From NCBI GenBank assembly GCA_905178155.1, contig CAJINV010000012.1:2632707-2696706 (forward strand): a stretch of DNA of 64,000 bases, read 5' to 3'. The stretch's first letter is position 1; every line of letters begins with the position of its first letter. Origin of the DNA: Amoebophrya sp. A120. Lineage: Eukaryota > Protista > Dinoflagellata. Under the pieces are notes generated by a model. The model had not been told where the DNA came from and did no database searches. It saw only the letters and a program-made list of their open reading frames with translations. Both the position numbers and the translations under genes were made by a program. Of the stretch, positions 1 to 63,430 are shown piece after piece.

Positions 1-925
1 CTGTTGGAGAAGCAGCAACAGTACGATATTTCGTATTGCTGAGGCAGGTCGGATGTAAAAATGGATCAGCACACATGCTGCTACTTGTGAGTCAACTTTA
101 TCTATACCTCATGCTCCTCCCAGGAAAAGGCGAACAATTTCGGCGGCTCCGCATTTTTCGCATACTCCACGTCGAAGAAGCAGTGCAAACAGTACAACAC
201 CGACGCGGTTAACGCGGCGACCTTGCTATTCAGGTCGTACCGGATAAAAGAAGAACTCGACGTGATGTTGGACAGAGAAGGGGCAGCTCCACTACTATTC
301 ACTTTGTTCTTTCCCATAACTTCATTTGCCGCTACCTGAAGCAGACTGCTAGATGAGTTGGTGCGGCTCGTGGTGCCAAAATAACCCCCCGAAGATGCTG
401 CTGCGCTTGTCGTGAAAGGTGTAGCTGACGTGCCTCCACCAGGGCTTTTTGTTTTTGATGCAGCGAATGAACTTGTAATACAATTTGATGAGCTACTGGA
501 GGAGCTACCATGATGCCGGCTGTCATCGTCGTACAAGGCCACTTTGGCGTGCACGAGATCCTCCTTCTCGATTGCGTCCCACGCGATCCGGACTAATTTC
601 TCCAGTGGATTGCTGTTATATGCATTGCAAATAAAGCTGCATCGTGCTAGTACTAGTTATAAACTGCATGACAAATTTTCCTACAGAAGAGAAGTGGAAT
701 TTGTAAATGCCGATTTATTACCTAATGTCGAGGATTTATCATGCATGATCACTGTAATTACTACGAGCATGATACTTTTGCAGTGCATATGGTGCCGACT
801 GCGTTGATCCCGTTGCCCGCCGGATCATGGTGGCGGTTTGTTCTCTCTGCCGTTGCGTGAAGGTTGACCTGCTGTGTGGCGTGCTCCGCACCGCCGGTCA
901 CGAGGCTGGATTTAGAGGAGGGCAT
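1..925 (-). CDS. Hypothetical protein, 3' end outside window (exons 925-790 and 613-108, then a GT intron)
   Basis: ATG at 925. Removing introner 619-789 plus one repeat copy joins ...INAVGT/SNPLEKLVRIAWDAIEKEDLVHAKVALY in frame with ORF 102..554. GTATAG donor at 107. Confidence 0.65.
619..789. mobile_element. Introner family A (degenerate)
   Basis: TATGCATTGCAAA...GATACTTTTGCAGTGCATA; flanks TGTTA/TGGTG; removal restores frame. Confidence 0.7.
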
Positions 926-1613
926 TGTTGCGTTTTAGTACTCTCGTCTCTGCGTGGTTTCTTCTTTTCTTGTTCTTCCCACCGCCGCGATTGACGCTGA
1001 CCATTGCAATAATATATCGAACGGTTGTGCTTTCAAAGCGAAATCGCAAACTGTGAGAACTAAGAAAGCACATCACGCACCCAGCGCCACACGTTCGGTC
1101 AAAGTTTCCTCAAAAATCCACAACCACAACACCCCGTGTGTTTGTTCCTTATGCCGTTTATTCGTTGAACACAGAAAAGACTACACAAAAACGAGCTGCA
1201 GCGAATGACGCTAGCTGCATTCAACTACAGCATGTGCTACGCACTACACCACGGCGTAGAGCAGGACTGCTTATGGCACTACCAGCAATGTTGTTTGTTG
1301 CTGTTGTTGCTGGATGAACTAGAACTCAACTACTTGGTTATGTCAACAACAGGAGTCTTAGTTTTTCAGGGATTTTGGTTTTTCTTCCTCGGGAGTCACA
1401 CACTGACGCTGAGATCTGAACTGTAGTAAGCTCATCTGAAGATGCTCAAAGTAAAGTATTCTTCAGGAACACCTGAGAAAAGAGTAAATCCGTTCTTAGT
1501 GAGCAGAACGCGACAGCATAGTATTCTCAAAAGTAAAACCATTTGTTCGTCCCCGTCAATACTAATCCCACCGCGACTGGTGGTCCACTCGCGCATGCTC
1601 TTGGTCACATTGT

Positions 1614-4600
1614 TCACGAAATCTCCTCGACACTGAGCCTTTCTGCGTCGTCTTCCTCTTCCGTGTTTCTTTTCCTCTCTTCAACTCCAGTGGCTGCTGC
1701 TCCTCCCATCGGTCCCTCCAATCTGAAGTCCTCAAAGCTGTCCCGCGCATTTTCATCGCCCATGTTGCCGCTGTCGTCCTCGCCAACATCTCCACCAACT
1801 AGGTTCCCCGACAAAACCGCACCAACATCTCCTGCTCCTGTGCCACTGACGACCCCAGGCGGCTGTATATCTCCTGCTGCATTCGTCGAACCTCCTCCTG
1901 CTATTATACTCCCTGCTTTCCCAATAATACTATCCACTGGTCCTTTCTGGGGTGAAAACGCGTTGTAATTGACCGATTTCCGTCTCTTCGGGTCCAGTTT
2001 CACCTTCGGCAGGTGCAGGGCCCGGTGCACCGGAGAAAATTCCTCAACCTGGTCCTCCTGCGACCCCTCGGGGATGGGGTTCAAGGAGCCAGGTGCAACT
2101 GCGTTTGATGCTGCTCCCACCGCTGAGGAAAGGACGGAGGTTTTGTTCTCGTTGTTCATCATAGAGCTATTTTTTCTGCTCGGCCGCACCATCGCCTCCG
2201 TCTCCTCCCCCGGGTTGCCCATGTCGGTCATCAGATTTGGCACCGGGTGTGGGATGTCCGGCAGGGGTAACTCCAGATGATGAGACATCTCCAGGCCGGT
2301 AGAGTTTGCTTTCCTGAGCTGCTCCACGAACTCGTCATGAACCCCGTCTGCCGCTCCTGCTTCAGTGGTTTTGCGCTGCTCTCCCTGTCCAAACGCGGAG
2401 AACATTGGTGGACCCCCAGCCGCGCCTTGTGGAGGTACAACACCTTGGCCTTGGTTTTGGTACATCATCTCAGTCGTTTTCATGTCGTCGTCGATGTGCA
2501 CCGCTCTTTGTTTCTGCTTGATAAACCGCCGGCGCTTGCTCCGTTCCGCGATCTGCGACCAGGTCAGGACTTGCGTCAGCCCGGGCTTCATCATGCCCGG
2601 CTCTTCAATCGTCGACACCTTTTCCATCAGAAAGTCTCGCCCGGCCTCCCGGTAGTGCTCGAACTTTTTCTGCCGCTTGTTGCACAGGTTCTGCAACTTC
2701 GTCAGCTGCCGCATGAAGAGCTTGTGCTCCTCGTGGAACACGTAGATGTTCTCCGGGGAGGAGACGGAGGAAACCGTGTTGCGCTGCTGGAAAATCTTCT
2801 CCATCTTCTTGAAGCGGCTGTCCTCCCGGATTTTCGGCAAGATTTCCTGCTTGAAATACGCCCGCCGGCTGTCGATGATCCGCTTCTCCACGCTCGTCTG
2901 CGTGTCGATCAGCTTGTGGGTCATCAGCGCAACGGACTTTTTCGCCTTCGAGGTGGGCGACAGCTGGTATGGTGTTCTCAACTGTTACATTCTCAACTGT
3001 TACATGGATTTGCGATGCAAAAGCCGCAACAGTCAAAGGTGCAAGCTTGCTGCTTTCGCATCACAGATTTGGCACCGATTTAGATGCTGTTTAGCCCTTC
3101 GGATATTTGTCATGCGAAGCAGCTTGATCATCTACCGGCTCAAGGTTGTTTTGCATGAGAAATTCATGTAACAGTTGAGAATGTAACGTTTGAGAACACC
3201 ATAGCTGGAGATCAAGGTGGTCATCCTCTACGTTGGCCGTGTATGACAGTGCACAACTACAACTCCACCCTCATTTGTCATGCAAGCCATCAAATCCACC
3301 CTTTGATGCCCCTTCGCACCTTTTGCATGACAGGTTGTGGTAGATCAAACAGCACTACAATCGTCCTGGGTGAATTTGTCATGGAAAACCCGCACTCTTG
3401 CCAACGCTTGTATTGCTGTACATGCAATACAAATGAGGGGGAGGCGGAGTTTTGCACTCTCATACCATGTCAACGTCGTCGTGTAGATTGTCCAAATTCG
3501 CCATGTTCATTTCTGGTCCGCTGGTTGCGGCGGAACTGCTGCCGCTCGGATTGTTATCGTCGTCGTTCGCGGAGGAAGCGGCCGCGGAGAGAGTGTTTTA
3601 TGCGCTGCAAAAGTATCGTACTCGTACTAATTGCAAATCTGCATGACAACTCTTCTTCCAAACGTAAAACAGCATTACGAGTTGCATTCTTCATGCTGAG
3701 CAAATTTGTAATGCAATTCATACTAGTACGATGCTTTTGCATTGCATATGTTTGTTCCCCCGTTGACTCCGTCGTCCACGAGCTCCTGTCGCGGCTCAAT
3801 ATTCAAATGCTTTTCCAACTCGGAGATTGTGTTGCAGTTCGACACCAAGTCGAGCTTCTCTTCCCACGCGTGCACTTTTGAATTTGGGGTTAACGCAGAT
3901 TGCTTCGACGAGGTTTTATTCGGTCGATGATTTTTCGTGAAAGATGTCATCGTGGTCCCATGTTTTGCGAGATTCGCCGCCTTGGCCTTCGCAGAGGTGG
4001 TCTTCGCAGCGGGAGGTGCGCCGCCGGCTTTGCTGGTGCTCTTCCCACCACCTCCCACGGCGGCGGAAAACCGGGAATAGGTCGGGTTTGCGGTCGTGTG
4101 CGTCACGCGAACATTTGTCCCCGGCACAATGGGATTATTTGCCATCGCTCCTGCGGAGGTGGCTGGTTTGTGTCCGGACAACTGGCTATTCACATCCGAA
4201 TTGTCTCCCTCATCCGCGGAGGAACAGCTGGACATGGCCAAATCGGATTCCATCGGGTCCGGAATGACTTCCGACGGGAGAAAGCCGTGCTCCCGCAGCA
4301 ACTGCAGGTAGTTTTGCCGGGCCAACCGATCCTCCCGGACCGCGGGGTGGAGCATGCCGCGGGCGCCCGGCATGTATGAGAGTGCACAACTCCCCCTCCC
4401 CCTCATTTGTAATGCAAAATACCAAATCCGCCACCCTGTGCCTCTTGGCACTTTTTGCATGACAAGTTCTGGCAGCCCAATAGCACTACACTCCTGTGCA
4501 AATTTGTCATGCAAGACCTGCATTCTTGCTGACACTTGTATTGCCGTTCATGCTATACAAATGAGGGGGAGGGGGAGTTGTGCACTGTGATAGCATGTTC

Positions 4601-25195: not shown

Positions 25196-26409
25196 ATATA
25201 TTTCGCGATAACTACTGCTCTGCGTAACAGCTATTGGTCTGCTCGATCTCAAAGTTAAAAGTTTTATTTGTTGCAGGTCCTCCGACGTCTGGTCGACGTT
25301 GCTCAGCAGGTAGTTCTTCTTTAAAATCTCCTCTAGTGATGCCCACGCCGATCATTCTTCCACCTCCACATCTTTTGTTCATTCTATCCCTGGCACTGCT
25401 GGCGCTGCAACTCACGACGCTACATCTAGTCGGACAAGCCCTGAGCTTTCCAGAAATCCTTGTTGTGCCTTCTCAACATTGTGCTACTTTTTAGCCCTCG
25501 AATAAAAGATCAAACTGGCGGCAACAAGAGATCAAAAAGGCGGCAACAAAGGATCAAAAAGAGCGGCGACATTCCTCACCGATCGCCGACGCGTCGAAAA
25601 TTATGAACGCCTCAATGCACAGGATAAGTCATTGTCTGAGCCTTCCCTGGTCGTTCCGCAACCTGTTTGCAACTACTCCCACCGACTACCAGCACAAGTG
25701 TGAGGGGAGTTGTCCGTGCACCCGATGTCGCCCTTTCCTTGGCCGTCTCGGCAATTGAAGCACCGTCTTAGAATTTTTTTTTCTATCTCCTCCAGCGCCG
25801 CGCGTTGAAACGGGTCGGGGCTCTTGCAACTACAGGTCTCCACATTCAAACATGCGCACGGTGGAAGTGACATTTCACCACACTCACCAGCACGCTGGAG
25901 GAGCTGTCGCTGATCGTGCTGCCACTCGTCAACATTTTGCCTCCGTATACTGACCAACGCCGCCCGCGAGGGACACATTTCCGCAAGGCCCTGCGAGTGC
26001 AGGCCTATGTCAGAATAGCGCGCCAATCCGTATGGTCCGCAAGTCTGGTTGTGGGAATAGTACACGCGCTGCCAGTGTGAAGCGTCCTGAGCCTCTGCGC
26101 CAATTGTATTGCGTCTGCTTGGCCGCACGTCATTTGTTTGCTTCCGAGAAAACAAAACTTTTGTCCTGCAGAAAAGTACATGCACACCGCATTTTTACCT
26201 TTAAAAAATAAATCTATCTTCTCGCGCCGCAAAAAAAGCACTTTGTGACTGTACCGCATGAAAAGCTTTCACTTTGTGAATTTTAGTAGTGCCTGCTGTC
26301 CTCGTATCGATATAAATTTGTATAGCGGATAATTCGCATGATAGACTGCAAGCTGCGTTCTGCATGGCAGCACTACAGCGACTGTCTTGTGGTCTCCGTC
26401 TTCGCAGAC

Positions 26410-29400
26410 TTACATTAGATTATATGTCTTTTTTCTTTTTGATGTCAAGACATGATCACGAATGCGCTTGACGAAACGCAATCTTTTTTTCTGGTATAAT
26501 GGGTGCAATGGAGGACTCTTGTCTTGGATAGCTTTTGCGGTCCGCAGGTACAGTTGCAAGTCGTCCTGGAATATCAAATGTAAAAATGTCTGGGTCTGGA
26601 AGAAGGGAACTTGTGATGCTGAATTTGGATTCCAAAAAAATCTGTATTGCATGAGCAGCAAAGAGAATGCAATTTTTGCTACGCGGAGAGGGCATTTGTC
26701 ATGCGGAATAGGCATCGCGAAGCCCTCAAAAAATCTGTGATGCTAGGGCATGCATCACAGACATCATCATGGCCAATGCAAAACATGCATGACAAGTCTC
26801 AGAATCTTCCAGACCCAGACATTTTTACATTTGATATGGAAAAAATCGCGCGGACCTGGCGGTGCTTGTGCTCGTGCCTCTGAAGTAGACGAAGAGGTTG
26901 CAGGACCGGTCTTTTGGAAGTCAGTTGACGCTGCTGCTTGTCCCTTTTGGACCCGCCGGATTACCAGCGTCAACACAGCATCATCACCCTCTTCAGGAAA
27001 CGATGGCCGGTCGCCGAAGACGTCAGCCAGAACCATACTCCTCGCAGCGGCAGCATTGACGAGAGCCAAAGACTCGTCGCTCCCTGGACCTGCCTTGTTC
27101 ACCCCGTCTGCGCGATGAAAGTTGACTTCCTCGAGTGTTATCGGCTTGGGATACAAGTAAGCGGGCGAGAAATTATTTTCCTTTTGAATTTTATTTCCAA
27201 CTACAGAAGTAGTTCCAGTTCCTCTTCCTTCTCTATTAATGGACGCTATCGTGTGCAGATCCAGCTTCGTAGCCAGCTCCTCGACATTCCATTCTTCCCA
27301 GTTTTCTTCGGCACCACCATCAAAGCGCACGGCTTGCGCTGCGTCTTCTGTCTGAACGATAAGACCGCGCCGGCCTGATGTTTTTTGACCCGCGACGTCG
27401 AGTGGAGGTCGCGTGGACGTGGGAACAGTAGTACAAGTGCCAACTGGTGTTGAACTAGGAATATGGGATTCTCAAATGTTACATTCTCAACTGTTACATG
27501 ATGAATTTGAGATGCACCAGCAGCAAAAGTGAACGCGGCAAGAACAAGATTTAGATTTTTGCACACTTCGCATTACAAATTTGGAACAGATTCAGGTGCT
27601 GTTTTGCCCTTCGAGAATTCGTCACGGACGCGAAGCACCTTGAAGATCGTGCGCTGGCCGCGTATGGCAATTTTGTAGTATGACAAATCATGTAACAGCT
27701 GAGCATGTAACGTTTGAGAACCCCATACGGAGTCTTTTCGGCGTGGTGGCCAGAGCAACAAGAACCCTTGCCGAAAATAATTTGCGGAGGGGCGCGGCGG
27801 GCGGGGTCATTACAGAAATAATTCTCGTCATCGTCTTTTTTATCAGCAGCTTCTGCGACAAGAACCGGCTCTGCCCGGTACTGAACCGAGATCGATGCGC
27901 CTTCCAACTTCAGCCCGCCTTTTTCTTCCAATTCAAACCTGAACTTAAGGGAGAACGCGGGCAGAGATTGCTGCACCCAGCCAGTGACACGCGGCTGCTC
28001 CGAAACAAAACGTCCGCCTCGACCCTTCTGATAAATCGCGTCTGAGACCTGGAACCTTGCATGTGCCTTACTTTCCAGCACTACTTTAATAATCTGCCGC
28101 ATCGGCCCATTAGGTTCGTCAATTGAGAATACACAAAAGTGGCAGCTTGGCAGGTCTGCTCGCAGCGTACTCAAGTCAATATTTCTGTGATCATCTTCAT
28201 CTTCGTCGGTCGCGGGCGTAGTAGTTTCTGTGCCTGCACCTCCGGGCGACGTAGTAGAGGAAGAAGACGGAGCGGTCTTGGCTGCACCTCCACCTGAAGC
28301 TGCTGAAGGCCTTCCTTCTCTGGCACCCTTCAGCAGTGGCACAAGTGTGACCAAGGGCGTGCTCACTACATCATCCGGACTTTGCAGCGCTACTTTATCG
28401 TCCTTTCGGCCCGGGTAGACGCTCTTTGGAACGGCAACCGCCGTTCTTTCTTGCACGCGAGACCAATTTTTCCCTGCTGTCCCTGAACAAGATGCAGAAG
28501 AAGAAGTGCTCGAAAATAAGTTATACTTCTCCGGCCAGAGTATCTCCACGAGTTCGGAATCCATTTGCACACTGTGCACAAAAGTTTGCGCAAAGGCATT
28601 GAGCTCCTTCGTCATTTGCTCGCGGTACTGCGGCCAGAGCTCGTTTATCGCTGCCCGCTCTTCATTGCTCGGCATGCGGCCTTGGATGTCTTTCCACTTG
28701 CGCCGTTTCGCCTGAGAGTAGTCGATCAGTTTAGGAAAGTGTTTGCTTAGGTCCTTCACCCACAACTGATCGAGAAAAGCCGGAACGGCCCGGTGAATGG
28801 AAGTCCCTCTCTCCAGTGTGTAGTAGTCCTGCCGTATGTAGTAGTCAATAGTCTCCTCATCTTCATCCGTGCTTAGGTTGTTCCCCGTCTCGCCCTCGCA
28901 ACTCCCCCCGCTATGGGACTCTCAAGCGTACTTACACTCTCAACTGTTACAACACCATGTGTCATCGTTACACTCTCACTCTCAACTGTAACAGTTACAC
29001 GATTTTTTGTCATGCAAAAATACCATCAGCCTCGAGCTCGACACGATCAAGATGCTGGCTCGCGTGACATCAAATCCTCGAAGGGGTAAATTATTGAGTA
29101 GCATGGAACAAATCCGTTCCAAATTTGTATTTGCAAGAAGAGGCGTAAATATCTACCCGCGGCCAGCATTTCTTTCCTTGCATCACAAGAAATTTGTGCA
29201 ACAGTTGAGAATGTAACGTTGGAGAACTTCTCCATACCCGCTGCCCGCAGCTTTTGACGTCGAAGACGCGGCGATTTTCGTCCCCGCTGTTGTCCTCCGC
29301 TTCTTGCCCCGCTTCTTTGTAGTTCCATCCCGTCTCTTCTTTTCGTGCTGGTGGTAGAAGAACCTTTTGCGAAGCTCTCTACTTGCTCCCCCTAATTGCC

Positions 29401-37100: not shown

Positions 37101-38939
37101 CCGATGGCGGGGTAGGAGCGGGGGACTTTGTACTTCTCCCGGAATTCGGCAGATAAATTGTTCGTGTCAGCCATACCGAAATAGAGACCCGTCTGGCCGA
37201 GACCTGATAGGAACAAATACCGATTGAAACAGATGACAAAAATTTCATTTATTGCCCCGTGCTGGCGAGATCGATGATGATGACGATCATGCAAAGAGGT
37301 AGTGGGATCAATTATTGGTGGTGAAGACAACTACTACAGCTGCCAGAATCGCATAGCAGAATGATTATCATCGAGAAAAAGCATTAGAAATCGCGATTTT
37401 CACATTACCTCCTAGCCGCGTAATGTTTCGTTTGACCTCGTCCGACAAATTGTGAAAGTCCACTGAAGAAGAAGATGCTCCCTGTGCAACTCCAGAAGCT
37501 GCTCCCGTAGTTCCTTCCGCACCATCAACGGAGCTGCTGCTGCCCGTGCTGGTGCCCTCTGTTTGTCCACCATGATCGTTCTTCTCCAAACTCAACCCCA
37601 CGCTGTCGTGGATGTGTTTGTAGCTGATGATCCCCTGGCTGTGCTTCGCGTATCCTGTGCAAAAGTATCGCACTTCTTAGTAATTGCATTAATGCATTAC
37701 AAATCTCTTTCTCAAGGTAAATCCGCATTACAAATTGAGTTTGTCAAAATGCTGGGTTAGTTTGTCATGCAATTATTTCCACCTAGTACGATGCTTTTGC
37801 ATCGCCTATCGCGAAGTACAGATTCAAATCCGTCGCCAACTTCTGGCAAAACACGCACTCCGGCATGTGCACCGCCAAAATGACCCCATTGCGCTTGTGG
37901 AAAAACCGGCTATGAACTGCAAAAGTCTCGTACTCGTAATCGTATGGCAATCATGCATTATTTTTTTTTTCAAGGTAAATCCGCATTACCAATTTTATTT
38001 CTCATGCTGAGGAAATTTGTAATGCAAATATACGAGTACGATACTTTTGCATTTCATACCGGTCCTCGGAAAGCAAAAAGTCCAGGAATTCACCCTCGTT
38101 CGCCGGCGTCCAGAACGATTTCTTATACGCGACCTCGGGATTGCCTGTATTACGTTTTACTTGTTAAGCGAAGTTGGTGACATGGTCAACATCATGTTTT
38201 GCTTCATTCCATTTCCATCATTTTATTGAGGCTATTTCTTATAGGTTTAACCCGTACCTCCCTTCATAAGCTCCCGCATCCCCGCCAGGTCATACATCAT
38301 TTTTTATCCTGTGTAAAAAGTTCGTCCCCACCTGACGCTTGTGATTTTTTACCAAATCTGCACCATGCCCAGAACGTGCCAGCGCAAGATGCAGCTATCG
38401 CCCGTGCGGCTTAAGACCTTGCGTTTGCGATTGCGTAGCTACAAAATTATAAACTAGCAGCAAGTAGATGACCATCTAAATTTATATATCATGTGTGGGT
38501 ACGCAGCTTTTACTCACGATACTTCTTGATTAATTTTCATCTCGGCCTGCACTGCCTTCATGCCGCTGGGGAGTTCACTTTCATCAAGATTTTGTCCCTT
38601 TGCAGCCTTGATCCGCTTGCCTTTACTGCTCTTCGAGGACGAGCCCTTTGCTTTTTTCTCCAAGTTTTCCTGGAACTGTTTCCGAAAAAACTGGATTCCG
38701 TACATGAGTAACATTCCCACACACGGCATCACCACGGCCACAATCAGCGTTCGCCAGTAATTCGACCGCGCTTGTTGGTGCTTCGAGGGGCGATAAGGAA
38801 GTTTCTTTCCTTGATTGCTGCTTTTCGAGTAATTTTTATTCGGAGAAGTAGAACTGCTTCCTCCTGCCTTATCATTGCCCTTCCCAATCTCGTCCCGAAA
38901 CGGGTTGGAGGGCTGAGCTTTTGCCGGAGACGGCGCCAT
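31143..38939 (-). CDS. Thioredoxin/PDI-like membrane protein (N-terminal TM, CVFC motif, acidic coiled-coil C-terminus); 14 introners and 2 GT-AG introns
   Basis: TM segment WRTLIVAVVMPCVGMLLMYGI; spliced VILAVHMPECVFCQKLA (CxxC) and FREKYKVPRSYPAIGLW (thioredoxin cis-Pro loop). Frame is continuous across all 14 introners plus introns 38145-38257 and 37204-37408. Confidence 0.7.
31746..32025. mobile_element. Introner family B (diverged)
   Basis: B-type core GTCYGGRTCTGG; TSD AACCG/AACTG. Confidence 0.85.
32117..32270. mobile_element. Introner family A
   Basis: Family A TIR; TSD GTTCT/ATTCT. Confidence 0.87.
32404..32715. mobile_element. Introner family D with an internal palindrome
   Basis: Family D TIR; TSD CCTGC. 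Confidence 0.92.
32922..33204. mobile_element. Introner family D
   Basis: Family D TIR; TSD CGAAC. Confidence 0.92.
33288..33578. mobile_element. Introner family B
   Basis: Family B TIR; TSD TCCAC. Confidence 0.93.
33751..33991. mobile_element. Introner family C
   Basis: Family C TIR; TSD ATCAA. Confidence 0.92.
34127..34326. mobile_element. Introner family A with an internal duplication
   Basis: Family A TIR; TSD CGAAG. Confidence 0.92.
35218..35479. mobile_element. Introner family B (diverged)
   Basis: Right TIR CCAGACCCAGACACATTTGCATTTGATA; TSD CTGCT. Confidence 0.88.
35542..35871. mobile_element. Introner family H
   Basis: TIR core AGGAAAAATCCCCCTCCCCATAT; TSD CAGCG. Confidence 0.92.
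36142..36463. mobile_element. Introner family H (opposite orientation to 35542)
   Basis: Family H TIR; TSD GTACT. Confidence 0.92.
36882..37051. mobile_element. Introner family A (diverged)
   Basis: A-like TIR; TSD GCCAA. Confidence 0.85.
37651..37808. mobile_element. Introner family A (right end CTA)
   Basis: Family A TIR; TSD TCGCG. Confidence 0.88.
37911..38058. mobile_element. Introner family A
   Basis: Family A TIR; TSD CCGGC/CCGGT. Confidence 0.9.
38305..38521. mobile_element. Introner family D (highly degenerate)
   Basis: TATCCTGTGTAAAAAG..CGTCCCCAC...GTGGGTACG..CTTTTACTCACGATA; flanks TTTTT/CTTCT; removal restores frame. Confidence 0.75.
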
Positions 38940-43834: not shown

Positions 43835-43872
43835 ACTCGCTGCTCGATCGCTAGTCGTTCGCTCCTAGTGCC

Positions 43873-44687
43873 AATGGATTGCAAAAATGTCTGGGTCTGG
43901 AAACTTGTAATGCTACAAGTGAATGATAGACGCACTGCAATACGCAACTATGCATGACAATTTTTTTGGCTGCCGTGTCTTACGTATTCCGCATGGCATA
44001 TGGCGCCGTATACTATCTCAACGTCGAACTATCTCAAATTTTTTTACCTCAACTCTATATAGCTATCTAAAGTAGGTAGTTTATGTAGATAGTGAATTAT
44101 ATGCAAGTAGATAACTGTTTTGCATGACAAATGAGCTATATTAGAAGAAATCGTCTGGTCCCGCTCCGCCGCCCTGTCAATTTCCGGAACCCCTTTCGAC
44201 CCCGTCTGTGAGGGGCCCCCCCGGAAGGGGGGTCGGCGAGGGGGGTAGCTGAGGGGGGCAATAATAAGCTTCCGCCGATGCTAGGGCGCACTGAAAAAAT
44301 GCAGCTTTTTGAGCACCTTTCAGGGGTTCGCGGAAGGGGTGTCCGGAAGGGGTCATGAGGGAAGCAACAGGACTAGAAAAAATCGGCGGAGCAGGACCGG
44401 ACGACTTTCATTGATCTAACTTAATCTGTCACGCCAAAAATCTAGCTACATAAGCATCATGTGTTAGCTGAATAAACTAGCTACTTGAACTACCTATTTA
44501 ATATTGGGTTGAAAAATTTTGAGATAGTTGAGCGTTGAGATAGTATACGGCGCCATATGGCAAACTGCGTTTTTGCATGACAGGTAAGAGGGCTTTTTCC
44601 TGCCTATGCAACACAGACTCTCAAGTCATGCCAGACAAGCATGACAGACTTGCATTCTTCCAGACCCAGACACTTTTGCATTTGATA
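43873..44687. mobile_element. Family B element interrupted by a nested element
   Basis: B-type TIRs; TSD GTGCC/GTGCT. Confidence 0.88.
43999..44557. mobile_element. Nested 559-bp foldback/MITE element with TAT...ATA ends
   Basis: Perfect 25-bp TIR TATGGCGCCGTATACTATCTCAACG with longer imperfect arms; TSD TGGCA. Confidence 0.92.
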
Positions 44688-45478
44688 GTGCTATCGCGTC
44701 GAAACTTACCCAATAACTTGAAGGTGCTAGTACAACAATTTCATTTTTTTATCTTTATCGTGCTGTATTGATATTCTCATTTTTTAGTTTTCGTTCTTGT
44801 CAGAATTATTCTCGCGAATGATAAATACGTTACATTTTTATTTTTTTCGAATAGCTCTTTTAATTTTTTTTGCTTTTTTCAACTTTCGAATTGTATAGGT
44901 CGATAAATTCAATCCTTTTTCTACTCAACCAAAATTATCTTTCACTCCCAGAACCCCTAGTAATGAGATCACAAGAACTGTACTTTGACCGCCAGAAAAA
45001 AAAAACATACTTAGGCCTTAATAACATGCCAAATCCAACAGAAGTACAGGTACACCAAGTATCTTTCCAGAAAAAACATATAGTGCTTACTACCAGACTA
45101 GCGCTCTATTTCCGTAAATCTAAAAACAACCGGTATAATTACATGTTCTCGCTGAGCAACTATTCTACACCGAGCATGAGCCTTTTGCTCCACCCGAGTG
45201 CTTTTTTGTCTCTCGTAGATCTTGAAGGCATATGTTCGTTTTGCCGTTTAAGTTTAACTTCAAGCTGAAGCTCATCACTATCTGCTCTTCACATAAAAGT
45301 GTCTTCAGATACAGCTAGTTAATCGAGGTTTGGACATCAACTCAGCCTCAAGGAGCAGCACTCCACTAGTAAAGAAGTTATCCTAGACGAGCCTTCGTCC
45401 ACTAAACGACATCAAATGCAGTCACTTCACGTCATTCTGGCACAACTCTTCTGAGGAAGACTTTGCCCAGCAAACTAC

Positions 45479-48400
45479 TTAGGACACCCGCATGTTGTTC
45501 GAAGGGTACTGCTGCTGCTGGTTGTGATCGTGATTGTACTGCTGTTGTTGCCCGTACTGCTGCAGGTTGTTATGGGAAATATTCGCGCCGTGAAGATTGT
45601 TCGCGTGATTATTTCCCTTCCCCGCATGACTTGTTCCATGGTGCTGATAATTGTTGTGATACGCGGTAGAAGTATGGTCCCCTCCCTTTGTTCCTCCAAC
45701 AGCGTTACCTCCATTGTTCCCGCCACAACTCGACGTCGGACTCTGTCCCACGTTGACTGCCTTTTCGTTGTTGAAGTTCAACGGATGCGTCGGCGTGCCA
45801 TGGGGTGTCCGTGGGCGCGGCTCCTCGGGGTCGTTCCGCAAAATGTTGAAGAATTTCGTCAGCCAGGCGGAGGGGTTCTTCACCCGCATAGATCCGTCCT
45901 CATTCCGGCGTTCTAACTCCGACGATTTCAACAGCATCGGGTGCCAGTAGCAGGCGAATTGCTCTTCCAAGAACCAATCGACTGTCCTTTTTTCCACCTC
46001 GTACTTGTTGCAAACCGACAAAAGCGCGCTGTGGACCTCATCCTTGGACAAGGAATTGATGGTCTGGGACAAATGCGTCTGATTGCTGTAAGACGTCGGA
46101 TTTTGCTCCCCATTTCGGCCCCGATTCCCCACTGGGGGGTACTCCTTCGGCTGGTGGTGCTGGTGGTGCTGCTGATGTTGCCCATGTTGCCCACCTTTCA
46201 TGTTGTTGTTCATAGGAGTATGGTCGGAGGCCGTGTGGTACTGGTTGTCGAAGTTATTATTCCCACCAGCGAAATTACTAGTACCAGTGTTGTTGTGTTT
46301 ATCTCGGGCCGCGTTATGTTGGCCACGATTATGATCTTTCCCGTTGTGATGGTCCTTGCCAGAATTGTGCTGGCCACCTTGCCCTTTTCCGCCAGCGTTG
46401 TAAGCTGCAGTGTTATTGTTCATAGCTGAATAGCTGGTGTAATTGTCCTTTCCCGACAAGGCAGCTGAACCGGAGTTCTGCTGGTGTTGCGCCGGTGCGT
46501 TGAATTTGTCATGGTACTTGCCGCTACCGGATCCCGGCTGTTGGGTTTGTTCCCAATTACTCTGATAGTTCGTTCCTTGGTTGTTGTACTTATCGGAGGA
46601 GGAGGGTTGCTGGTTGTGGTACTTATCATTGTTCCCGCCGCCCTTACTGTTGTTACTTCCGTATGGCGCATGATGATCTTTGTGCTGCTGGTGGTTTTGC
46701 CCCTTGGTGTTAGCGATAGTTTGCGCCCACTGCTGCTGCGACCCATTGTTGTTCCCATTGTTATTACCAGGATTGTTGTTGTGCTGCTTTCCGTTATTCA
46801 ACATCATTCCGTGCTGGTTCTTACCACCTGCACCTTTCTGGTTGCCGTACTTATTGTTCGTCGTGCTGGTGTGGTCACCAGCATGTTGCTGGCTGGTCAA
46901 CACCATCCCTTTTGATGCCGCGCCGTGGTTGTTCATTCCACCATGATTGTCCTGCTGGTTGTTGCTTGTTCCCATCGTCTGATGATGCTGCTGCTGCTGC
47001 TGCTGCTGAGCCGCGTTGTTGTAGTTGTCCCGGAGCGAGTTCAGCTGCTGCTGAATCTGCTGCGGAGTCGGCAACACCGGCGGCGGCGGCGGATTGAAGG
47101 ACTGGTAGTTGTTAGTACTACTGCTCACCGGCTGGTGAGATGTACCATTTTGGTTGTTGTTCGCAGGCGTATTGTTGTTCATCCTGGAAGATGAATTGTT
47201 GTTCATTTTTTGTTCCTGCATTTGCATCTCCTGCTCTTCCGCTTCCATGGTTTGTTGAAACCACGACTTCGTGGACTTTTTCGTCAACAGAGTGGACGCA
47301 TTAGACTGCGGCTGCTGGTGCTGAGAGTTGTTGTTCATCATCTGCTGATTGTTGTTCATCTGCTGGTTGTGCTGCATCATCCCGCCGGCGTTGGCGTTGT
47401 GCGAGGTCAAAATGCTACTACCCGTGGTGAAGCCCGAGTTGGTTCCCGAGAATTCCAACTTGGAATTGCTTCCCGGCTGGTGCGGTTGCCCGATCGTAGA
47501 CCCGAACGAGTGCAGGAAATTGTTGTTGGTGGTGGAGGAAGAGTTGGCACCGTTGACACCAGCAGCATTCGTATTCGAGTTGTGCTGCTGGGTACTGTTG
47601 TTGTGGCTTTGATTTTGATTTTCTTGCTGGTGCTGGTGGTGCTTGTTCATTCCTCCTTTCTTGTTATTTTTCCCGTGGCCCTTAGAAGTATTGTTTTCCT
47701 TGTTGCTGTTGTTTTCCTTACTTCCGGTGTGAGTAGAAGTAGCCGAGTTATTGTTGTTGCTCGTCTCACCCTTAGAATTATTATTCCCCCCAAACTCCTT
47801 GTTCGCACCACCGTAACTGAAAGCGCTCATGCAGGATTTCGATCCCGACTGGCTCTTCCCAGTCGTCTGCCCGCCAGGAGTGGTGGACTGAAAGGAACTT
47901 TCGTTCGCCGCGGTGGTGTGGTTTCCACCGTTAGAAGTACCGTCGTGCATCATCTTCCCGCCCGTCCCGCTGGAAAGACTGGTGTTCCAGTGGTTCGGCG
48001 TTTCAACCCAGGTGCCCGCCCCGGGAGTCTCGTTCCAGGCCTTGTTGTCGCGCCACGCGCGGCCGTCGGAGGCTTGTCCGTTGTTGTCCGGCTCCATAGA
48101 CGGGGACGCGTCGGGAGCGGACTGCTTGGTCGTCGCCTGTTATTTCATTCAATGATAATTTCTCTGCTATTGATTGAACACGACTCAGCCGATGACTGCA
48201 ACCCACGTGAAGATGGACTCCCTCACTTCGGCACACCAGGATATCAGAAAGACTGCACCTACGTAATTCATTTTCATCCCGATAGAAATTGGAATTGCAT
48301 TGCTGCAATTCCAATTTGATATTTCATTTTTATTCAGCATAAGAAACAAAGAAACTATACCGAGCGACCACCCGAATTATTGTGCTCAAAGCCCTGGTGA

Positions 48401-50770
48401 AAGTCGATGCGACGCTTGGTGATCGGCAGGATGAGGCCTGGCTGCGTGGTAGCTCCTGCAGCTCCCTGTTGGTTGTTGTTGTTGTTCCCAGCAGTAGCAC
48501 CACTAGCACCTCCGGTATTACTGTTGTTGTTGTTCCCCGTATTATTATTGTTGTTGTTCCCCGCGGTCCCAGCAGCAGCGCCTCCACCACTCTGCGGTGG
48601 GCTCGGCGGCGCCTTCTGCGGTGGCGGCGGCGTGACCGCTTCGGGAATGGTGCGCGGGGTTTCGGACGATTCAGAAAGACCCGGCGGACGCTCGGGGCCC
48701 GACTTCGGCGAGTTTTTCTTCTTCTTCGACGGACCAAGCTCCTCTGTGTAGGTTTGTTGTTGTGTGAGGATTTTGTATGAAGAAGATTTTTCGATTTGTC
48801 ATGCTATTGGTATTGCTAACTGGAAAGGCAATGCACAAAAAATACAAGCGAAGTGATCTCTTGTGCTGATGCGATGGATCAGTGTTGTAGTCGGGTATCG
48901 CATGAAGAACAAGTAGAAGAGATAGAGAAATCATCAACATAAACCGAAGCAAATCAACAGTCAAACAAGAATCGGTCATCTGTCAAACAATTCACTCATG
49001 TGTATCCGGGGGTTTTAAGTCGTTGTCTTCTTCGTGAACTTCTTTCTCTGTCAAACAAGTTAAAGTAAAAAGTATACTCAGTTTTTTCTTGGTGGCCGCG
49101 ATGACCACCTCCGCCGCGCTGGAGCTTTTCTATCCTGTGCAAAACTATTGTACTCGTATTGCAGTCATGCATTACAAATCTTCTTTTTAAGGTAAATCTG
49201 CATTACAAATTTTATTTCTCATGCTGAGGGAATTTGTAATGCATTTATACGAGTACGATACTTTTGCAGTTCATATTTTCTTCGCCGCAGCCACCGGCGT
49301 CTTCTGGTCCATCATCTTGGGCGTAGAAGTCGCATTGTCAAGAACAACATCGCCGACAGAAGTGGAGATCATGACCTCTCCACCCGCGGGGGTGACGACC
49401 CCATTGTTGGAAACGGAATCCCCGGAGGTGGAGCTGGAGTCTTCGCCGTCCCCATCACAGCTCCCGGCGTCGCAGCTGTTGGAGGAGTTTTGCGACGGCG
49501 TCTTCCCCGTGTCCGACAAAAAATCGTTTTGGACAGACTTGTTCAGCTTCTTGTTCAAATTCTTCAACACCGAGGTCGGCGACTGAGTCGTGATGTTCAT
49601 CTGCTGGTTAGAAGCACCAGTACAAGAGCCCCCGGTCGTCGCCAACACCTGCTGGAAATTATGTTGAGCAGCGACGCCGGTAAGCGCCTCCGTCGGAGCT
49701 CCAGCAAGGGTCCCCGCCGGCGGAGCAAGCATGTTGCTCATGTTGAAACTGCTGTTCACAGCCCCCGTCGTGTTAACCACCGCTGTCCCGGTACTGAAGG
49801 CCGTCATGGTCTCGATGTACTGTGCAAACGTGTTTGCGAGAGACTTGTTTTCCCGTTCCAACCGCTTGATGCGGTCGTCTTTTTCCTGGATCAGGGACAT
49901 GCACTCCTGGCGCTGTTTTTCGACCACTTTTTTCTCCGCCTCCACGTTGTCCAAGACAACGGTACTCCGGTTGGAGATGTTCTGATCCACCGCCATCTTT
50001 TCCGGCAGGGTTAGGCCGTCCGTAGTAGTACTAGGATCACCTGCAGCTCCACCAGACGTTGCACAAGAAGTGTTGGTCGAATTGTTGCTGCCGGAGCAAG
50101 CAGAGCCATCGTTGCCGGCGGTCGAGCTGCAAGAACCGTCAGCATTGATAGTTCCAGCAGTAGTCCCGGAGCAAGTGGAATTCATACCAGCACCGCCCAA
50201 CGGCAGCTTCAGACTCTCCCCCTCCCGTGGCGTGACGCCCCCGAGATCGGCACAGGTGGAGGGCGTGTTCAGACCACCATTGCTAGACTTCGTCTCTCGG
50301 GGCGTGTTGGAGAACGACCCGTACAACAGGGACGCGAAGTTGTCCTTTTCCATCTCCAGTTGCGCCACCTGCTGTTTCAGTTCCTCGCGCTGGTGCAGCA
50401 TGCTCTCGTACTTTTCCGTCATGCGGTCAAAGGCACACTGGAGCTCGTCAACGGGGGCAGCTGGTGCCTCAGCACTGGTCTTGTCTCCATCGGTAGTGGT
50501 AGTGCCGTTAGTGTCTGTATTGTTCGAAGTACTAGACTGGTTCAGCACAGTACTAGGCTGGAAGGACGATGTGGTGCTGTTGGCGGATTCCTGCCTTTGA
50601 CCGGATTTCACGGACTCCACATCGTTGTCACCTCCACCTCCGACCAGTGTGTTCGTGAAAAACCCCACCGACGGGTTCGTGTTCGTCTCGCTATTCAAAG
50701 CAAACCGCGGCGGCGGCATCGGGCTAGGGGTGGATCCCAGAGACAAGGTGGGCGTCACGGGTTCCGGCAT
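45479..50770 (-). CDS. Large low-complexity N/Q/G/H-rich protein with coiled coils and a short helical C-terminal domain
   Basis: ORFs 49271..50770 and 45479..48097 link in frame via introner 49131-49275 and inferred GT-AG introns 48744-49077 and 48137-48360. VKNPSAWLTKFFNILR weakly recalls the hnRNP Q acidic-domain helix motif. Confidence 0.6.
49131..49275. mobile_element. Introner family A
   Basis: Family A TIR; TSD TTTTC. Confidence 0.92.
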
Positions 50771-60697: not shown

Positions 60698-63430
60698 TCA
60701 CGTCATCGTTGGCAGCCGATCGTGGGAGGCCGACCCGGAGAGGACCCAGGGAAAGTTTGCACTGGCAGTGCCGCTCCGCTGCATGTCATGCCTGCTGGAA
60801 GCATTCGTGGTAGTCCTCCCGCCCCCAGCTCCGCCAGGAGTAGTACCATGCGGCTGATGCACCATCCCACCGCCCGTGTAGCTGCTTGTGCTTCCCGTAG
60901 TACTACCCCGGGTGGGGTGGAATAGGTGCTGGTTTTGTTGCTGTTGCCCCCCTCCTGCAGCTGTGGTGTAAAAACACGACGGCGGCGGCTCCCATCCGTA
61001 TCGATCTGGGTATTGGTTGTCAACAACCCTAGAAACCGCGGAAGACCCGACTGTCGATGCGCCCGAGTGCTGGTGCTGCAGAAACACACCGCTGCCGCCG
61101 CCAGCAGTGCCACCTCCTGACTGGTGCAGGAAACTACTGCCCCCCGGGGTCACGCTGCAGCCCGAAGATGAAGCTGTTACTGCACCGCCGGCAGTGGGTC
61201 CTCCTGACGAGGCAGCTGCGCCATGATGAACCGCGTGACTCCATGTCGTCGGTTGCCACTGCGGCGGGTTTACGTTATCCCAAGAAAAAAGTGTTACAGT
61301 TACACATCTGTAGTGCATTCTGCATCACAAACTTGCCTCGCATGACAGAGAAAACTTGCAATGCAGAGATCATTATATAGGCAAAACACACATGAAACAA
61401 GGCCCGCAAGCATCTTGCGCATGACAGAGGTGGTGTGTCTTGCGTGTTTTGCAACACAATGTGTAATGTGTAACAGTTTTTTTCTTCGGATACACGTGCG
61501 GGTGAAAATAGTTGCGCTGGTCCCGCCGGTCGCAGACTGTGATTTCGGTTAGTTTGGACACTATCCTGTGCAAAAGTAGTTGTACTCCTTGTAGTTGCAT
61601 TTATGCATATACAAATCTAGTTCCTAAGGCAAATCCGCATTACAAATTCAACCCTTTGCTCGCGTCTTATGGCGCACGAGTTACTGTCTGACATATACAG
61701 CTACTGAATCCTGAGAGTAAGTCCTTTGTAATGCTGAGACAAATTCAATTTGTAATGCTGAGCCAATTTTTTGTATTGCAATTTATACGTAGTACGTTTT
61801 TACTTTTGCAATTCATACACACCAGATGCCGGTGAAATTGCACCATTTCGTTTCTCACCTCCCAGTCCGCGCACGATATCAAATGCAAATATGTCTGGGC
61901 CTGGAAACTTGTGATGCTAAAATGTGACTGGTGGGCGGGCTGTAACACGCACCCAAGCATGACAAATTTTTCAGCTGCTACTGTGTTAGTTTCGTTTTCC
62001 GCATGGGCATGGCAAGCTGCGTTTTTGCATAACAGGCAAGACGCCCTTTCCTGCTCATGCATTACAGATTTATGAGTCATGCCAGACAAGCATGACAAAC
62101 CTGGCATCAATCTTCCAGACCCAGACACTTTGCAGTTGATACGCGACATGCGTAACCGATTCAGCTGCTCGCGAGCGAGCATCGTCGTCGTCTGTTGAAT
62201 TTGAGTTTTTGGTTTTCTTTGAATTTGCAAATAGCATCAACATGTCTGAAAAGTTTCATTTGATGCAGTTCTGTCCCTACGTAAGTAGAAGTTGTACATA
62301 CCGAGAATATAATTTGAGTTTGACAGCGAAGCAACGCTGAAAAAGTACCGCGACGACGTTCCCGACCCCAGAGGAAAAGCTATTCACGCGGTGCGTGCTC
62401 TGTCCCGACGTCTGCATCCTGAGTAAAAACGTACCCACACCAGAGTCAGGCTGGGGATTTTGCAACACAAACCTAGGAGTTTTGTGAGTCACGCATGACA
62501 AGTTGCAGGCTGTATTGTAGTGCAGTTTAGCAAGGGAAGCCGCATAACAAATCCACCTCCTCATCCTGTTCACAGCATCACAAATTCCAAAACACGATTG
62601 GAAATGGCTCTCATGGGGATGCGCATCACAAGTCTTCCTGTCTTTGCAAATCTGCATTACAACTCTGGTGTGGGTACGTTTTTACTCAGGATAGTCTGCG
62701 AGTCGTTGTCATGAGGGGATGCGCCGACTATCCCAGACAAAATCGAGCTGGAGTTGTTACTATCCTGTGCAAAAGTATCGCACTCGTATTGCAGTCATGC
62801 ATTACAAGTTTTTTTCTCAAGGTAAATCCGCATTACAAATTTTATCTCTCATGCTGAGGAAATTATTTGTAATGCATTTATACGAGTACGATACTTTTGC
62901 AGTTCATAGTTACCCCCTCTGTGGTGCGGGTTGTGGTGGTCTCGCAGCAGATGCTGTCCCTGATTCATCATGATCGCCCCGGTCCCGATCGAACTCGCCT
63001 CGCTGGGCGGCCGGGGGAGTTGCGCCGTGTGCTCCTCCAGGGCCGCGAGGCGGGGAATGAGCACCGGGTGGAGGTGTCCCAACGGCTTATGACAGTGCAC
63101 AACTCCCCCTCCCCCTCATTTGTATAGCATGAACGGCAATACAAGCATCAGCAAGAGTGCCAGTTTTGCATAAAAGATCTGCGCCGGAGTACTTATCGTG
63201 CTTTTTGGGCTACCAGAACTTGTCATGCAAACAGTAACAGTGCCAAGAAGCAACGGGTGGATAGGCTATTTTGCATGACAAATGAGGGGGAGGGGGAGTT
63301 TTGCACTTTCATACGGGTCGCAGGGCATTTCGAAGTAGTAGCGGGAAAAGAATGCCTGCTGGTGGTCATTGGTGCCCAGAACGGAGGACACATTGCTAGA
63401 AACCGAGTCCTGCCGGGGATTGTTGTTCTG
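60698..63430 (-). CDS. Hypothetical protein, 5' end unresolved; 6 introners and GT-AG intron 62192-62348
   Basis: Spliced reading ...YFEMPCDP/LGHLHP...GGN/NSSS...SQT/SGQ...RMSR/ADWEVRNEMVQFHRHLVC/KLTEITVCDRRDQRNYFHPHV/NPPQWQP is open across all junctions. Confidence 0.6.
61276..61492. mobile_element. Introner family I
   Basis: TATCCCAAGAAAAAAGTGTTACAGTTACACAT...ATGTGTAATGTGTAACAGTTTTTTTCTTCGGATA; TSD TACGT/CACGT. Confidence 0.88.
61562..61817. mobile_element. Introner family A with internal filler and duplication
   Basis: Family A TIR; TSD GACAC/CACAC. Confidence 0.85.
61877..62141. mobile_element. Introner family B
   Basis: Family B TIR; TSD CACGA/CGCGA. Confidence 0.9.
62415..62693. mobile_element. 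Introner family D (left end CAT; close relative of 53128)
   Basis: Family D TIR; TSD GTCTG. Confidence 0.92.
62761..62908. mobile_element. Introner family A
   Basis: Family A TIR; TSD GTTAC. Confidence 0.93.
63088..63313. mobile_element. Introner family E
   Basis: Family E TIR; TSD CGGCT/CGGGT. Confidence 0.9.

What the first reader, a model, noticed from the sequence alone, without database searches (positions are those of the whole stretch)
107..62348. Canonical donors are GTAY-biased, and introner 5' ends read N-TAY: possible spliceosome with a relaxed +1 base
Seen: the inferred canonical donors are GTATAG (107, 48360), GTACAA (5042), GTACTT (6798, 7285, 62348), GTACTA (22862), GTACAT (23981), GTACGG (38257), GTATAC (49077), GTAATG (37408) and GTGCTT (15434). 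That is mostly GTAY rather than GTRAGT. On the transcript strand every introner starts with TA (TAT, once TAC, once TAG), while 3' ends tolerate ACA, ATG and ATT. Inference: if cleavage falls one base inside the upstream TSD, introners begin N-TAT, which equals the donor consensus with only +1 relaxed. The TIR stem could then replace AG recognition by bringing the two ends together.
Basis: inference. Interest (0 to 1): 0.75.

Follow-up and report, generated by a model that had tools for sequence, protein, structure and literature searches.

The report
Transposon introns cut without GT-AG
These are the already published mini-transposon introns of the marine parasite Amoebophrya A120, and every testable junction here fits one cut, one base before and four bases after each element, which likely means a loosened ordinary spliceosome reads only the second and third intron bases and likely measures from a conserved A seven bases before the end instead of looking for AG.

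Summary
The window is Amoebophrya sp. A120; its 50 TAT...ATA elements with 5-nt duplications are the introners of Farhat 2021.

The predicted register holds. Of 14 elements with mismatched duplications, 12 were testable and all fit the N-TAY...ATA+4 nt cut. Spliced contigs alone allow registers 2-4; annotated proteins narrow this to 4. Positions 3 and 4 each rest on one gene model.

In 353 elements from a related assembly, +1 is free and a terminal AG is not enriched. Canonical donors are mostly GTAC (7 of 13), whereas introners read TAT; +4 pyrimidine donors are known elsewhere.

The stem-as-ruler idea is weakened. One perfectly paired element lacking A at -7 is cut 2 nt later, restoring that A; variants avoid -7 (2 versus 11 at the paired +4 base, p=0.02).

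Best reading (0.55): relaxed U2 spliceosome with a short branch-A ruler. Rival (0.25): Euglena-like non-spliceosomal excision. Lariats, snRNAs and Prp8 are untested. Earlier notes of this scan reported the same register, and one the -7 A, on other pieces of this genome; I found neither in print.

The parts
107..107 (-). candidate canonical donor GTATAG
   Evidence: sequence; in-frame AG at 39 only; not RNA-tested
615..790 (-). introner 619-789, model intron; duplication mismatched at positions 1 and 3
   Evidence: sequence; not tested
3238..3465 (-). introner 3242-3464, model intron; position 3 comes from the upstream copy (registers 3-5)
   Evidence: annotated protein P0002
4921..5042 (-). 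canonical intron GTACAA...CAG
   Evidence: P0002
5173..6266 (-). introner 5177-6265 with 3' end ACA; element plus 5 nt removed
   Evidence: P0002
6577..6798 (-). canonical intron GTACTT...CAG
   Evidence: P0002
7077..7285 (-). canonical intron GTACTT...CAG
   Evidence: P0002
11535..11688 (-). introner 11539-11687; duplication mismatched at position 1
   Evidence: sequence; not tested
15434..15434 (-). candidate canonical donor GTGCTT
   Evidence: sequence and open frame only
22862..22862 (-). candidate canonical donor GTACTA (plausible acceptor 22602)
   Evidence: sequence and open frame only
23981..23981 (-). candidate canonical donor GTACAT; near-identical context repeated at 23200
   Evidence: sequence only
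26158..26531 (-). introner 26162-26530 with degenerate TIR and 3' end ACA; position 5 from the downstream copy; model intron CT..AG
   Evidence: joint 26157>26532 in X1 and X3
27458..27728 (-). introner 27462-27727; position 1 upstream, position 5 downstream (registers 1-4)
   Evidence: adjacent contig pieces 27457 and 27729 in X3
31742..32026 (-). introner 31746-32025; position 2 upstream
   Evidence: joint 31740>32026 in X1 and X3
32113..32271 (-). introner 32117-32270; position 5 downstream
   Evidence: joint 32112>32272 in X1
32400..32716 (-). introner 32404-32715; reads GT..AG exactly at the model register
   Evidence: joint 32398>32716 in X1
37204..37408 (-). canonical intron GTAATG...CAG
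   Evidence: P0003; contig piece ends at 37201
37907..38059 (-). introner 37911-38058; position 1 upstream
   Evidence: P0003
38145..38257 (-). canonical intron GTACGG...CAG
   Evidence: P0003
38301..38522 (-). introner 38305-38521; position 2 upstream, position 5 downstream (registers 2-4)
   Evidence: P0003
41223..42947 (-). 1.7-kb element 41229-42946 with TAC...GTA ends in a non-coding 3' region; element plus 7 nt removed, which with an N-TAC start puts A at -7
   Evidence: joint 41220>42946 in X1, X3 and one X8 read; DNA not checked here
43869..44688 (-). introner 43873-44687 with 3' end ATT and a nested element; position 1 upstream
   Evidence: joint 43865>44686 in X1 and X3
48360..48360 (-). 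candidate canonical donor GTATAG
   Evidence: sequence and open frame only
49077..49077 (-). candidate canonical donor GTATAC (plausible acceptor 48744)
   Evidence: sequence and open frame only
61272..61493 (-). introner 61276-61492; position 5 downstream
   Evidence: adjacent X2 pieces 61271 and 61494; both duplication copies confirmed in DNA-like run X5
61558..61818 (-). introner 61562-61817; position 5 downstream
   Evidence: X2 piece ends at 61557, depth arithmetic gives next start 61819; P0001
61873..62142 (-). introner 61877-62141; position 4 upstream (registers 4-5), the only position-4 test
   Evidence: annotated protein P0001; the contig junction was not displayed
62192..62348 (-). 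canonical intron GTACTT...CAG
   Evidence: X2 piece starts at 62349; P0001
62411..62694 (-). introner 62415-62693 with 3' end ATG; element plus 5 nt removed
   Evidence: adjacent X2 pieces 62409 and 62694
63084..63314 (-). introner 63088-63313; position 2 upstream
   Evidence: adjacent pieces 63081 and 63313 in X1 and X2
   Evidence: adjacent pieces 63427 and 63636 in X1 and X2

Best explanation
The elements are non-autonomous TIR transposon copies that are missing from spliced contigs together with one copy of their 5-nt duplication, with one cut (one base before the element, four after it) fitting every testable junction, and they are likely removed by the ordinary U2-type spliceosome, which likely ignores the first and last intron bases, reads U at +2 and a purine at +3, and likely uses the first A of the 3' ATA as a branch point seven bases before the 3' cut. 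Shown: precise removal, a register compatible with all 12 testable elements, a free +1 base, no AG requirement, near-invariant +2 T, +3 purine and -7 A. Inferred: spliceosomal chemistry, the branch-point role of the -7 A, and a helper role for the inner TIR stem (positions 8-14) in holding the ends together. Because the duplication supplies both +1 and the last four intron bases and the TIR reads the same from either end, an insertion in any exon and either orientation would be spliced back to the original sequence.
For: Register: 14 of 14 informative letters in 12 elements; the only common register is 4, chance 0.008 if each element took a random register 0-5. Of six uniform registers only 4 gives 0 differences from P0001 over 404 codons. 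Shared signal: +2 T in 402 of 403 elements, +3 purine in 403 of 403, all four +3 variants being G; +3 purine in 13 of 13 canonical donors. Where the duplication happens to supply AG|G the model register is an ordinary GT-AG intron (32404). In 190 coding elements of the related assembly duplication mismatches concentrate at +1 (14 of 36, p=0.010), are mostly transversions (9 of 14 versus 3 of 22, p=0.003) and 8 of the 9 put a purine at +1 (post hoc). A at -7 in 49 of 50 window elements; the exception is cut 2 nt later, restoring it. In the related assembly variants number 11 at +4 and 2 at its pairing partner -7 (p=0.022), and both -7 exceptions have a frame-keeping GT-AG alternative. Farhat 2021 Table S4 rows: all nine top non-canonical end pairs of A120 have T at +2, and all nine of A25 start TT where its IRs start TTA, which also reads N-T-A. 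The same paper finds 83 of 89 spliceosomal proteins, U2, U4 and U6, but not U1 or snRNP27; SNRNP27K loss goes with +4 U donors in yeasts (PMC10581693). Branch-to-AG spacers of 2-4 nt exist in Yarrowia, Trichomonas and Giardia (PMC2483917), which puts the branch A at -6 to -8.
Against: No lariat, snRNA or Prp8 evidence was obtained. Spliced contigs alone allow registers 2-4; positions 3 and 4 each rest on one annotated gene model. A cut position inside a duplication cannot be read for the 36 elements with perfect duplications. The -7 A has no branch-like context (CTAAC or CTTAAC in the last 40 nt in 1 of 403) and sits in a predicted stem. Only 3 of 7 supported canonical acceptors have A at -7, so the two intron classes would need different 3' rules. 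Supported donors are GTAC or GTAA while introners are TAT. G at +1 is not enriched (104 of 353) and GT-AG at the model register is at chance (7 observed, 7.4 expected); the window's G excess (18 of 49, p=0.046) did not replicate. No orientation preference for +5 G (98 versus 98). The purine-at-+1 trend rests on 9 events and is not seen in the non-coding set. The shifted cut at 41229 is one case, and a 2-nt assembly or strain difference there was not excluded. The -7 asymmetry is one of about 35 comparisons, although it was specified beforehand (note).
Confidence: 0.55

Rival explanations
1. A second, non-spliceosomal route like that proposed for euglenid nonconventional introns: a protein binds the paired TIR ends, reads the TA/ATA motif, cuts at fixed spacers (1 and 4 nt) and ligates the exons.
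For: TIR positions 1-3 and 9-14 pair in 88-100% of elements. Neither terminal base is constrained. U1 was not detected in either strain. Euglena uses a paired motif plus spacers, N3CDG...CHG N5-6|R (PMC12501133 abstract), and its excised introns are circular (review PMC11282704). A motif-reading nuclease would also explain the shifted cut at 41229.
Against: The constrained 5' bases (+2 T, +3 purine) are those shared with canonical donors, and the constraint is asymmetric between the two ends (+4 free, -7 fixed). Mismatches at +1 in coding elements lean to purines. Both -7 exceptions can be read as GT-AG introns.
Confidence: 0.25
2. One reading: a spliceosome with a relaxed +1 base makes the 5' cut, and the TIR stem alone positions the 3' cut four bases past the paired end, with the branch point elsewhere.
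For: Same register and donor evidence as the best explanation. The terminal three pairs have mean pairing probability 0.71-0.80 in 47 folded window elements. The -7 A is also a paired TIR base.
Against: Element 41229-42946 is predicted to pair at the normal end yet is cut 2 nt later. Ends ACA, ATG and ATT, which break a terminal pair, and the degenerate TIR at 26162 are cut at the normal length. Breaking the +4/-7 pair from the 5' side is tolerated (11 cases) but from the 3' side is rare (2 cases).
Confidence: 0.15
3. The cut wobbles within the duplication and differs between elements, as Farhat 2021 drew it; the apparent single register comes from few cases and from the annotators' alignments.
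For: [quoted passage not shown] Contigs allow three registers (chance 0.12) and drop rare variants. Element 41229 departs from the rule.
Against: Position 5 comes from the downstream copy in 6 of 6 tests and positions 1-4 from the upstream copy in 8 of 8. Annotated proteins agree with contigs at 61562, 63088 and 31746, the three junctions where both are informative. The paper's own Table S4 shows T at +2 throughout.
Confidence: 0.05

Closest known systems
Introner elements / non-canonical introns of Amoebophrya sp. A120 (Farhat et al. 2021, PMC7789003; seen: abstract, passages, sections 11, 16, 32, supplement passages and Table S4 rows; figures not held)
   Same: Same organism and elements: TAT-starting inverted repeats with an A run, 3-5 nt direct repeats, many families, RNA-supported removal.
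   Different: The paper reports no clear splice signature and variable sites. It does not state a single N-TAY...ATA+4 register, the match to donor positions +2/+3, or the -7 A in the parts I read.
Fritillaria borealis transposon-derived non-canonical introns (review PMC11282704 section 6; PMC13326754 abstract and two passages)
   Same: TIR and TSD-bearing introns outside the GT-AG rule, handled by a U2-type spliceosome.
   Different: Fritillaria keeps preferred ends (AG-AC, AG-AT), keeps U1 and has duplicated U2AF. Here +1 and both last bases are free, +2 T is kept and U1 is undetected.
Euglenid nonconventional introns (PMC12501133 abstract; PMC11282704 section 6; PMC12621601 passages)
   Same: Paired motif near both ends with fixed spacers to the cuts; no terminal dinucleotide rule; direct repeats at junctions.
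   Different: Motif CDG/CHG with 3 and 5-6 nt spacers and a purine at the exon start. Here the motif is TAY/ATA with 1 and 4 nt spacers and the exon start is a purine in only 206 of 353.
Short fixed branch-to-3' distance introns of Yarrowia, Trichomonas and Giardia (PMC2483917 passages)
   Same: Branch A 6-8 nt from the intron end, no polypyrimidine tract.
   Different: Those keep a strong ACTAAC box and a terminal AG; both are absent here.
+4 pyrimidine donors: Saccharomycotina lacking METTL16/SNRNP27K (PMC10581693 passages); Mastigamoeba GUACGU (bioRxiv 10.1101/2022.06.08.495308 passages)
   Same: Canonical donors prefer C or U at +4; snRNP27 is undetected in Amoebophrya.
   Different: These keep G at +1. 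The yeast shift is to U, whereas A120 donors here are mostly C, with no +5 G preference.

Membership tests
Amoebophrya A120 introner elements | host genome is A120 | tested here: met
   three exons 100% identical to annotated A120 proteins
Amoebophrya A120 introner elements | terminal inverted repeats starting TAT with an A run after about seven variable bases | tested here: met
Amoebophrya A120 introner elements | 3-5 nt direct repeats at the boundaries | tested here: met
   5-nt duplication perfect in 36 of 50, 3-4 of 5 in 14
Amoebophrya A120 introner elements | repeated in the genome and removed from transcripts | tested here: met
   summed contig depth up to about 1e5 on elements versus about 45 on unique DNA in X5; joints and pieces in X1-X3
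U2-type spliceosomal intron | GT (or GC) at the 5' end | tested here: not met
   G at +1 in 19 of 50 and 104 of 353; T at +2 in 402 of 403
U2-type spliceosomal intron | AG at the 3' end | tested here: not met
   AG in 5 of 50 and 25 of 353 (8.4% expected)
U2-type spliceosomal intron | branch-point adenosine | tested here: inconclusive
   constrained A at -7 without a consensus box
U2-type spliceosomal intron | lariat intermediate and dependence on U2/U5/U6 | not testable with these tools
   no such data; no snRNA found in the window or in 58 of 148 loci scanned
U12-type intron | RTATCCT donor oriented at the 5' end (consensus recalled) | tested here: not met
   TATCCT at the 5' end only in 70, at the 3' end only in 61 of 403, p=0.49
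U12-type intron | CCTTAAC-type branch box and minor snRNAs (box recalled) | tested here: not met
   box in 1 of 403; minor snRNAs reported absent
Euglenid nonconventional intron | N3CDG...CHG N5-6|R signature | tested here: not met
   N1-TAY...ATA-N4; exon start purine 206 of 353
Euglenid nonconventional intron | paired intron ends | tested here: met
   pairing fractions and probabilities
Euglenid nonconventional intron | circular excised RNA | not testable with these tools
   no intron-product data
MITE (non-autonomous TIR transposon) | cognate transposase acting on the TIRs | not tested
   no search was run for it

The most novel reading that the evidence does not exclude
Amoebophrya A120 has a U1-less major spliceosome that has dropped both terminal-base requirements and removes tens of thousands of transposon introns by reading only U+2/R+3 and a branch A fixed seven bases from the end, with the same N-T-A rule reached separately by the TTA-ended elements of strain A25.
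Probability: 0.4. Interest if true: 0.85.

Novelty: new variant of a known kind. Interest (0 to 1): 0.62.

Why it matters
How Amoebophrya removes the 60% or more of its introns that lack GT-AG has been open since 2021, when the sites were described as having no signature. A single register turns that into a code (N-T-R at the start, A at -7, any last four bases) with direct tests: where the lariat branches, and whether U2/U6 are needed. If spliceosomal, it shows that the first and last intron bases, usually taken as fixed by the catalytic core, can both be given up at genome scale, and explains why a transposon can land in any exon in either orientation without harm. It would also allow the junctions of these genomes to be annotated to the base.

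Tried and rejected
No whole genome was held for the window, so genome-wide counts come from loci of a related assembly of unknown strain. An unconstrained TIR+duplication scan gave 687 mostly spurious pairs and was replaced by end-anchored and library-based scans. Raw RNA runs X8 and X9 laid only 51 and 11 reads on 20 kb, too few to test register heterogeneity. In one search all 15 displayed joints came from the DNA-like run and are repeat artefacts; only the pieces table was usable, and the position-4 junction was not among the displayed pieces. The representative-protein search for the gene holding donors 48360 and 49077 found nothing. Rfam found no family in the window or in 58 loci (422 kb), and the loci's records were not held for a family search, so U1, U6 and Prp8 remain unexamined. 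Rejected: enrichment of G at +1 (window only, not replicated); enrichment of AG or GT-AG at any register; a U12-like reading of N-TATCCT; selection for +5 G; A at -7 as a rule for canonical introns (3 of 7). The automatic mapping of P0001 failed; its test is. Element 28912-29236 was entered one base short and corrected; window counts are, and the end library kept that one shifted entry.
Full report
IDENTITY. Three exons of the window are 100% identical to proteins labelled Amoebophrya sp. A120 (P0001-P0003). The window holds 50 catalogued elements of 109-1718 nt with terminal inverted repeats and a 5-nt target duplication; three were added after the end-anchored scan, two from contig joints and one by reading, so a few more may be missed. 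All host genes that could be oriented are on the minus strand (40 of 50 called minus, 0 plus, 10 undecided). These match the A120 introner elements of Farhat et al. 2021 (PMC7789003): IRs starting TAT, an A run after seven variable bases, direct repeats of 3-5 nt.

OBSERVATION. Six are supported by annotated proteins or a spliced contig, six only by an open frame. A thirteenth, GTAAGG at 63635, is contig-supported and was missed. GTAY is 10 of 13 against 12.1% of all GTs, but the pyrimidine excess given GTA is marginal (10 of 12, p=0.046; 5 of 7 supported, p=0.33), and it is mostly GTAC. All 50 elements start TA; 3' ends are ATA 45, ACA 2, ATG, ATT, GTA.

REGISTER TEST. Fourteen elements have mismatched duplications. 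I laid runs on 24901-44900 (X1, X3, X8, X9, 15 of 31 joints and 16 of 1032 pieces displayed) and on 60600-64000 (X1, X2, X3, X5, 15 of 84 joints and 32 of 4282 pieces displayed). X1-X3 are only guessed to be RNA and come from two samples of one study, but their contigs lack both elements and GT-AG introns precisely. Position 5 comes from the downstream copy at 26162, 27462, 32117, 61276 and 61562 (the last partly by depth arithmetic). Position 1 comes from the upstream copy at 27462 and 43873, and position 2 at 31746 and 63088. X5 covers both duplication copies of 61276 without differences, and one copy each of 61562, 61877 and 63088. Contigs alone allow registers 2-4. Annotated proteins add 3242 (registers 3-5), 61877 (4-5), 38305 (2-4) and 37911 (1-5); only register 4 reproduces P0001 with 0 differences over 404 codons. 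The intersection over 12 elements is register 4 alone (chance 0.008 under random registers). Elements 619 and 11539 were not tested. Gene models are not reads, but they agree with contigs at the three junctions where both are informative. At 32404 the duplication reads GCAG|G and the model intron is an ordinary GT-AG intron. Farhat's Table S4 gives outside support: the nine commonest non-canonical end pairs of A120 all have T second, and those of A25 all start TT where its IRs start TTA.

WHAT IS READ. A motif scan of public metagenome contigs returned 149 stretches (148 loci on file, 623 kb with overlaps); the 80 listed rows share one assembly prefix, strain unknown. A library of inner TIR sequence that ignores the terminal three bases recovered 45 of 50 window elements with no extras and found 383 unique elements in the loci. 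I dropped 30 (3-of-5 duplications, nested, unoriented or conflicting), leaving 353 oriented by a 4-mer strand model (49 of 50 right, 0 wrong in cross-validation) and a codon model (188 of 193 agree); 190 have a coding signal. At +1, G is 104 of 353, no more than at other duplication positions. AG ends 25 of 353 (8.4% expected) and GT-AG 7 (7.4 expected). Variants per site: +2 one, +3 four (all G), +4 eleven, -5 four, -6 four, -7 two. In coding elements all of +2 and +3 are intact (190 of 190). Mismatches there cluster at +1 and lean to purines, a post hoc hint that +1 is relaxed rather than ignored; the non-coding set does not show it.

THE 3' END. Element 41229-42946 lies in a non-coding 3' region (longest open frame 111 codons on the transcript strand), has TAC...GTA ends predicted to pair normally, and loses 1725 nt rather than 1723 in X1, X3 and one X8 read. 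With an N-TAC start the 3' cut falls 2 nt late, which restores A at -7. The other 49 window elements have A at -7, including those ending ACA, ATG and ATT, which are cut at normal length. I wrote this rule down before testing it on the loci, where variants were 11 at +4 and 2 at -7 (p=0.022); both exceptions have a GT-AG alternative that keeps the frame, though the standard cut keeps it too. TIR positions 4-7 pair in only 38-60% of related elements, positions 9-14 in 93-99%. So the cut follows a base rather than the end of a helix, on one direct case whose DNA was not checked plus one population test.

MECHANISM. The constrained 5' bases are those shared with canonical donors, and a constrained A near the 3' end at a distance known from Yarrowia, Trichomonas and Giardia (PMC2483917) is what a branch point would look like. 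Amoebophrya keeps most spliceosomal proteins, U2, U4 and U6, and lacks detectable U1 and snRNP27; SNRNP27K loss goes with +4 U donors in yeasts (PMC10581693), which gives an ordinary cause for the GTAY bias. I therefore favour a relaxed U2 spliceosome with a branch-A ruler (0.55). Against it: no branch box, different 3' features in canonical introns (all 7 supported end CAG, 3 of 7 with A at -7), C versus T at +4, and no biochemical evidence. A U12-like reading of N-TATCCT was tested and rejected.

NOVELTY. The elements, their non-canonical ends and the missing U1 are published. Five full-text searches naming Amoebophrya or dinoflagellate introners and the passages read showed no statement of the fixed register, the +2/+3 match or the -7 A. 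Figure 3 and Figures S19-S25 of Farhat 2021 are images I could not see and may show part of it; most subscription journals are not searched. Eight of 40 matching notes of this scan were shown: seven report a fixed cut on other pieces of this genome and one also the -7 A. They are unchecked and were read after my own tests.

VERDICT. A real feature, a known system, with a sharper and testable code than the published description. New variant of a known kind; interest 0.62.

Noticed in passing
window 43999-44557 inside 43873-44687: A second TIR element nested in an introner is removed on its own (joint 43992>44557 in X1 and X3) as well as with its host: a twintron-like intermediate.
   Followed up: partly
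window 40007-45480: About 5 kb of apparently non-coding 3' region behind the gene at 45479-50788 holds three elements that are all spliced out; 18 X8 reads show a poly(T) adaptor end at 44835, a likely poly(A) site.
   Followed up: partly
window 41229-42946: 1.7-kb element with long TAC/GTA inverted repeats and an inner inverted pair (41425-42750); longest open frame 168 codons; no match in the related loci.
   Followed up: partly
window 23180-23240 and 23960-24020: A near-identical stretch of about 60 nt is repeated around a 720-nt insert, giving two competing donor-like sites, 23200 (GTACAC) and 23981 (GTACAT).
   Followed up: no
window 5485-6140, inside element 5177-6265: A 13-nt-period repeat block with inverted copies sits inside the introner; a 77-78% identical 570-590 nt match occurs in L008/L009 and L053.
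   Followed up: no
window 4921, 6577, 7077, 37204, 38145, 62192, 63428: All seven supported canonical acceptors end CAG, and most are A-rich with no polypyrimidine tract.
   Followed up: partly
window 63697-64000: Another high-copy element starting TATCC begins at 63697 and runs off the window; the spliced contigs stop at 63696.
   Followed up: no
window 16000-17500 and 20500-22000: Two GC-rich (63-64%) blocks between genes; not examined.
   Followed up: no
window 1617-8588: The gene's protein P0002 (1391 aa) carries Pfam PF00397 (WW domain, name recalled) and is interrupted by 7 introners and 3 canonical introns.
   Followed up: partly
L001 1359-1507: The only element with a +2 variant among 403 would start GC at the model register, the usual alternative donor.
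   Followed up: partly
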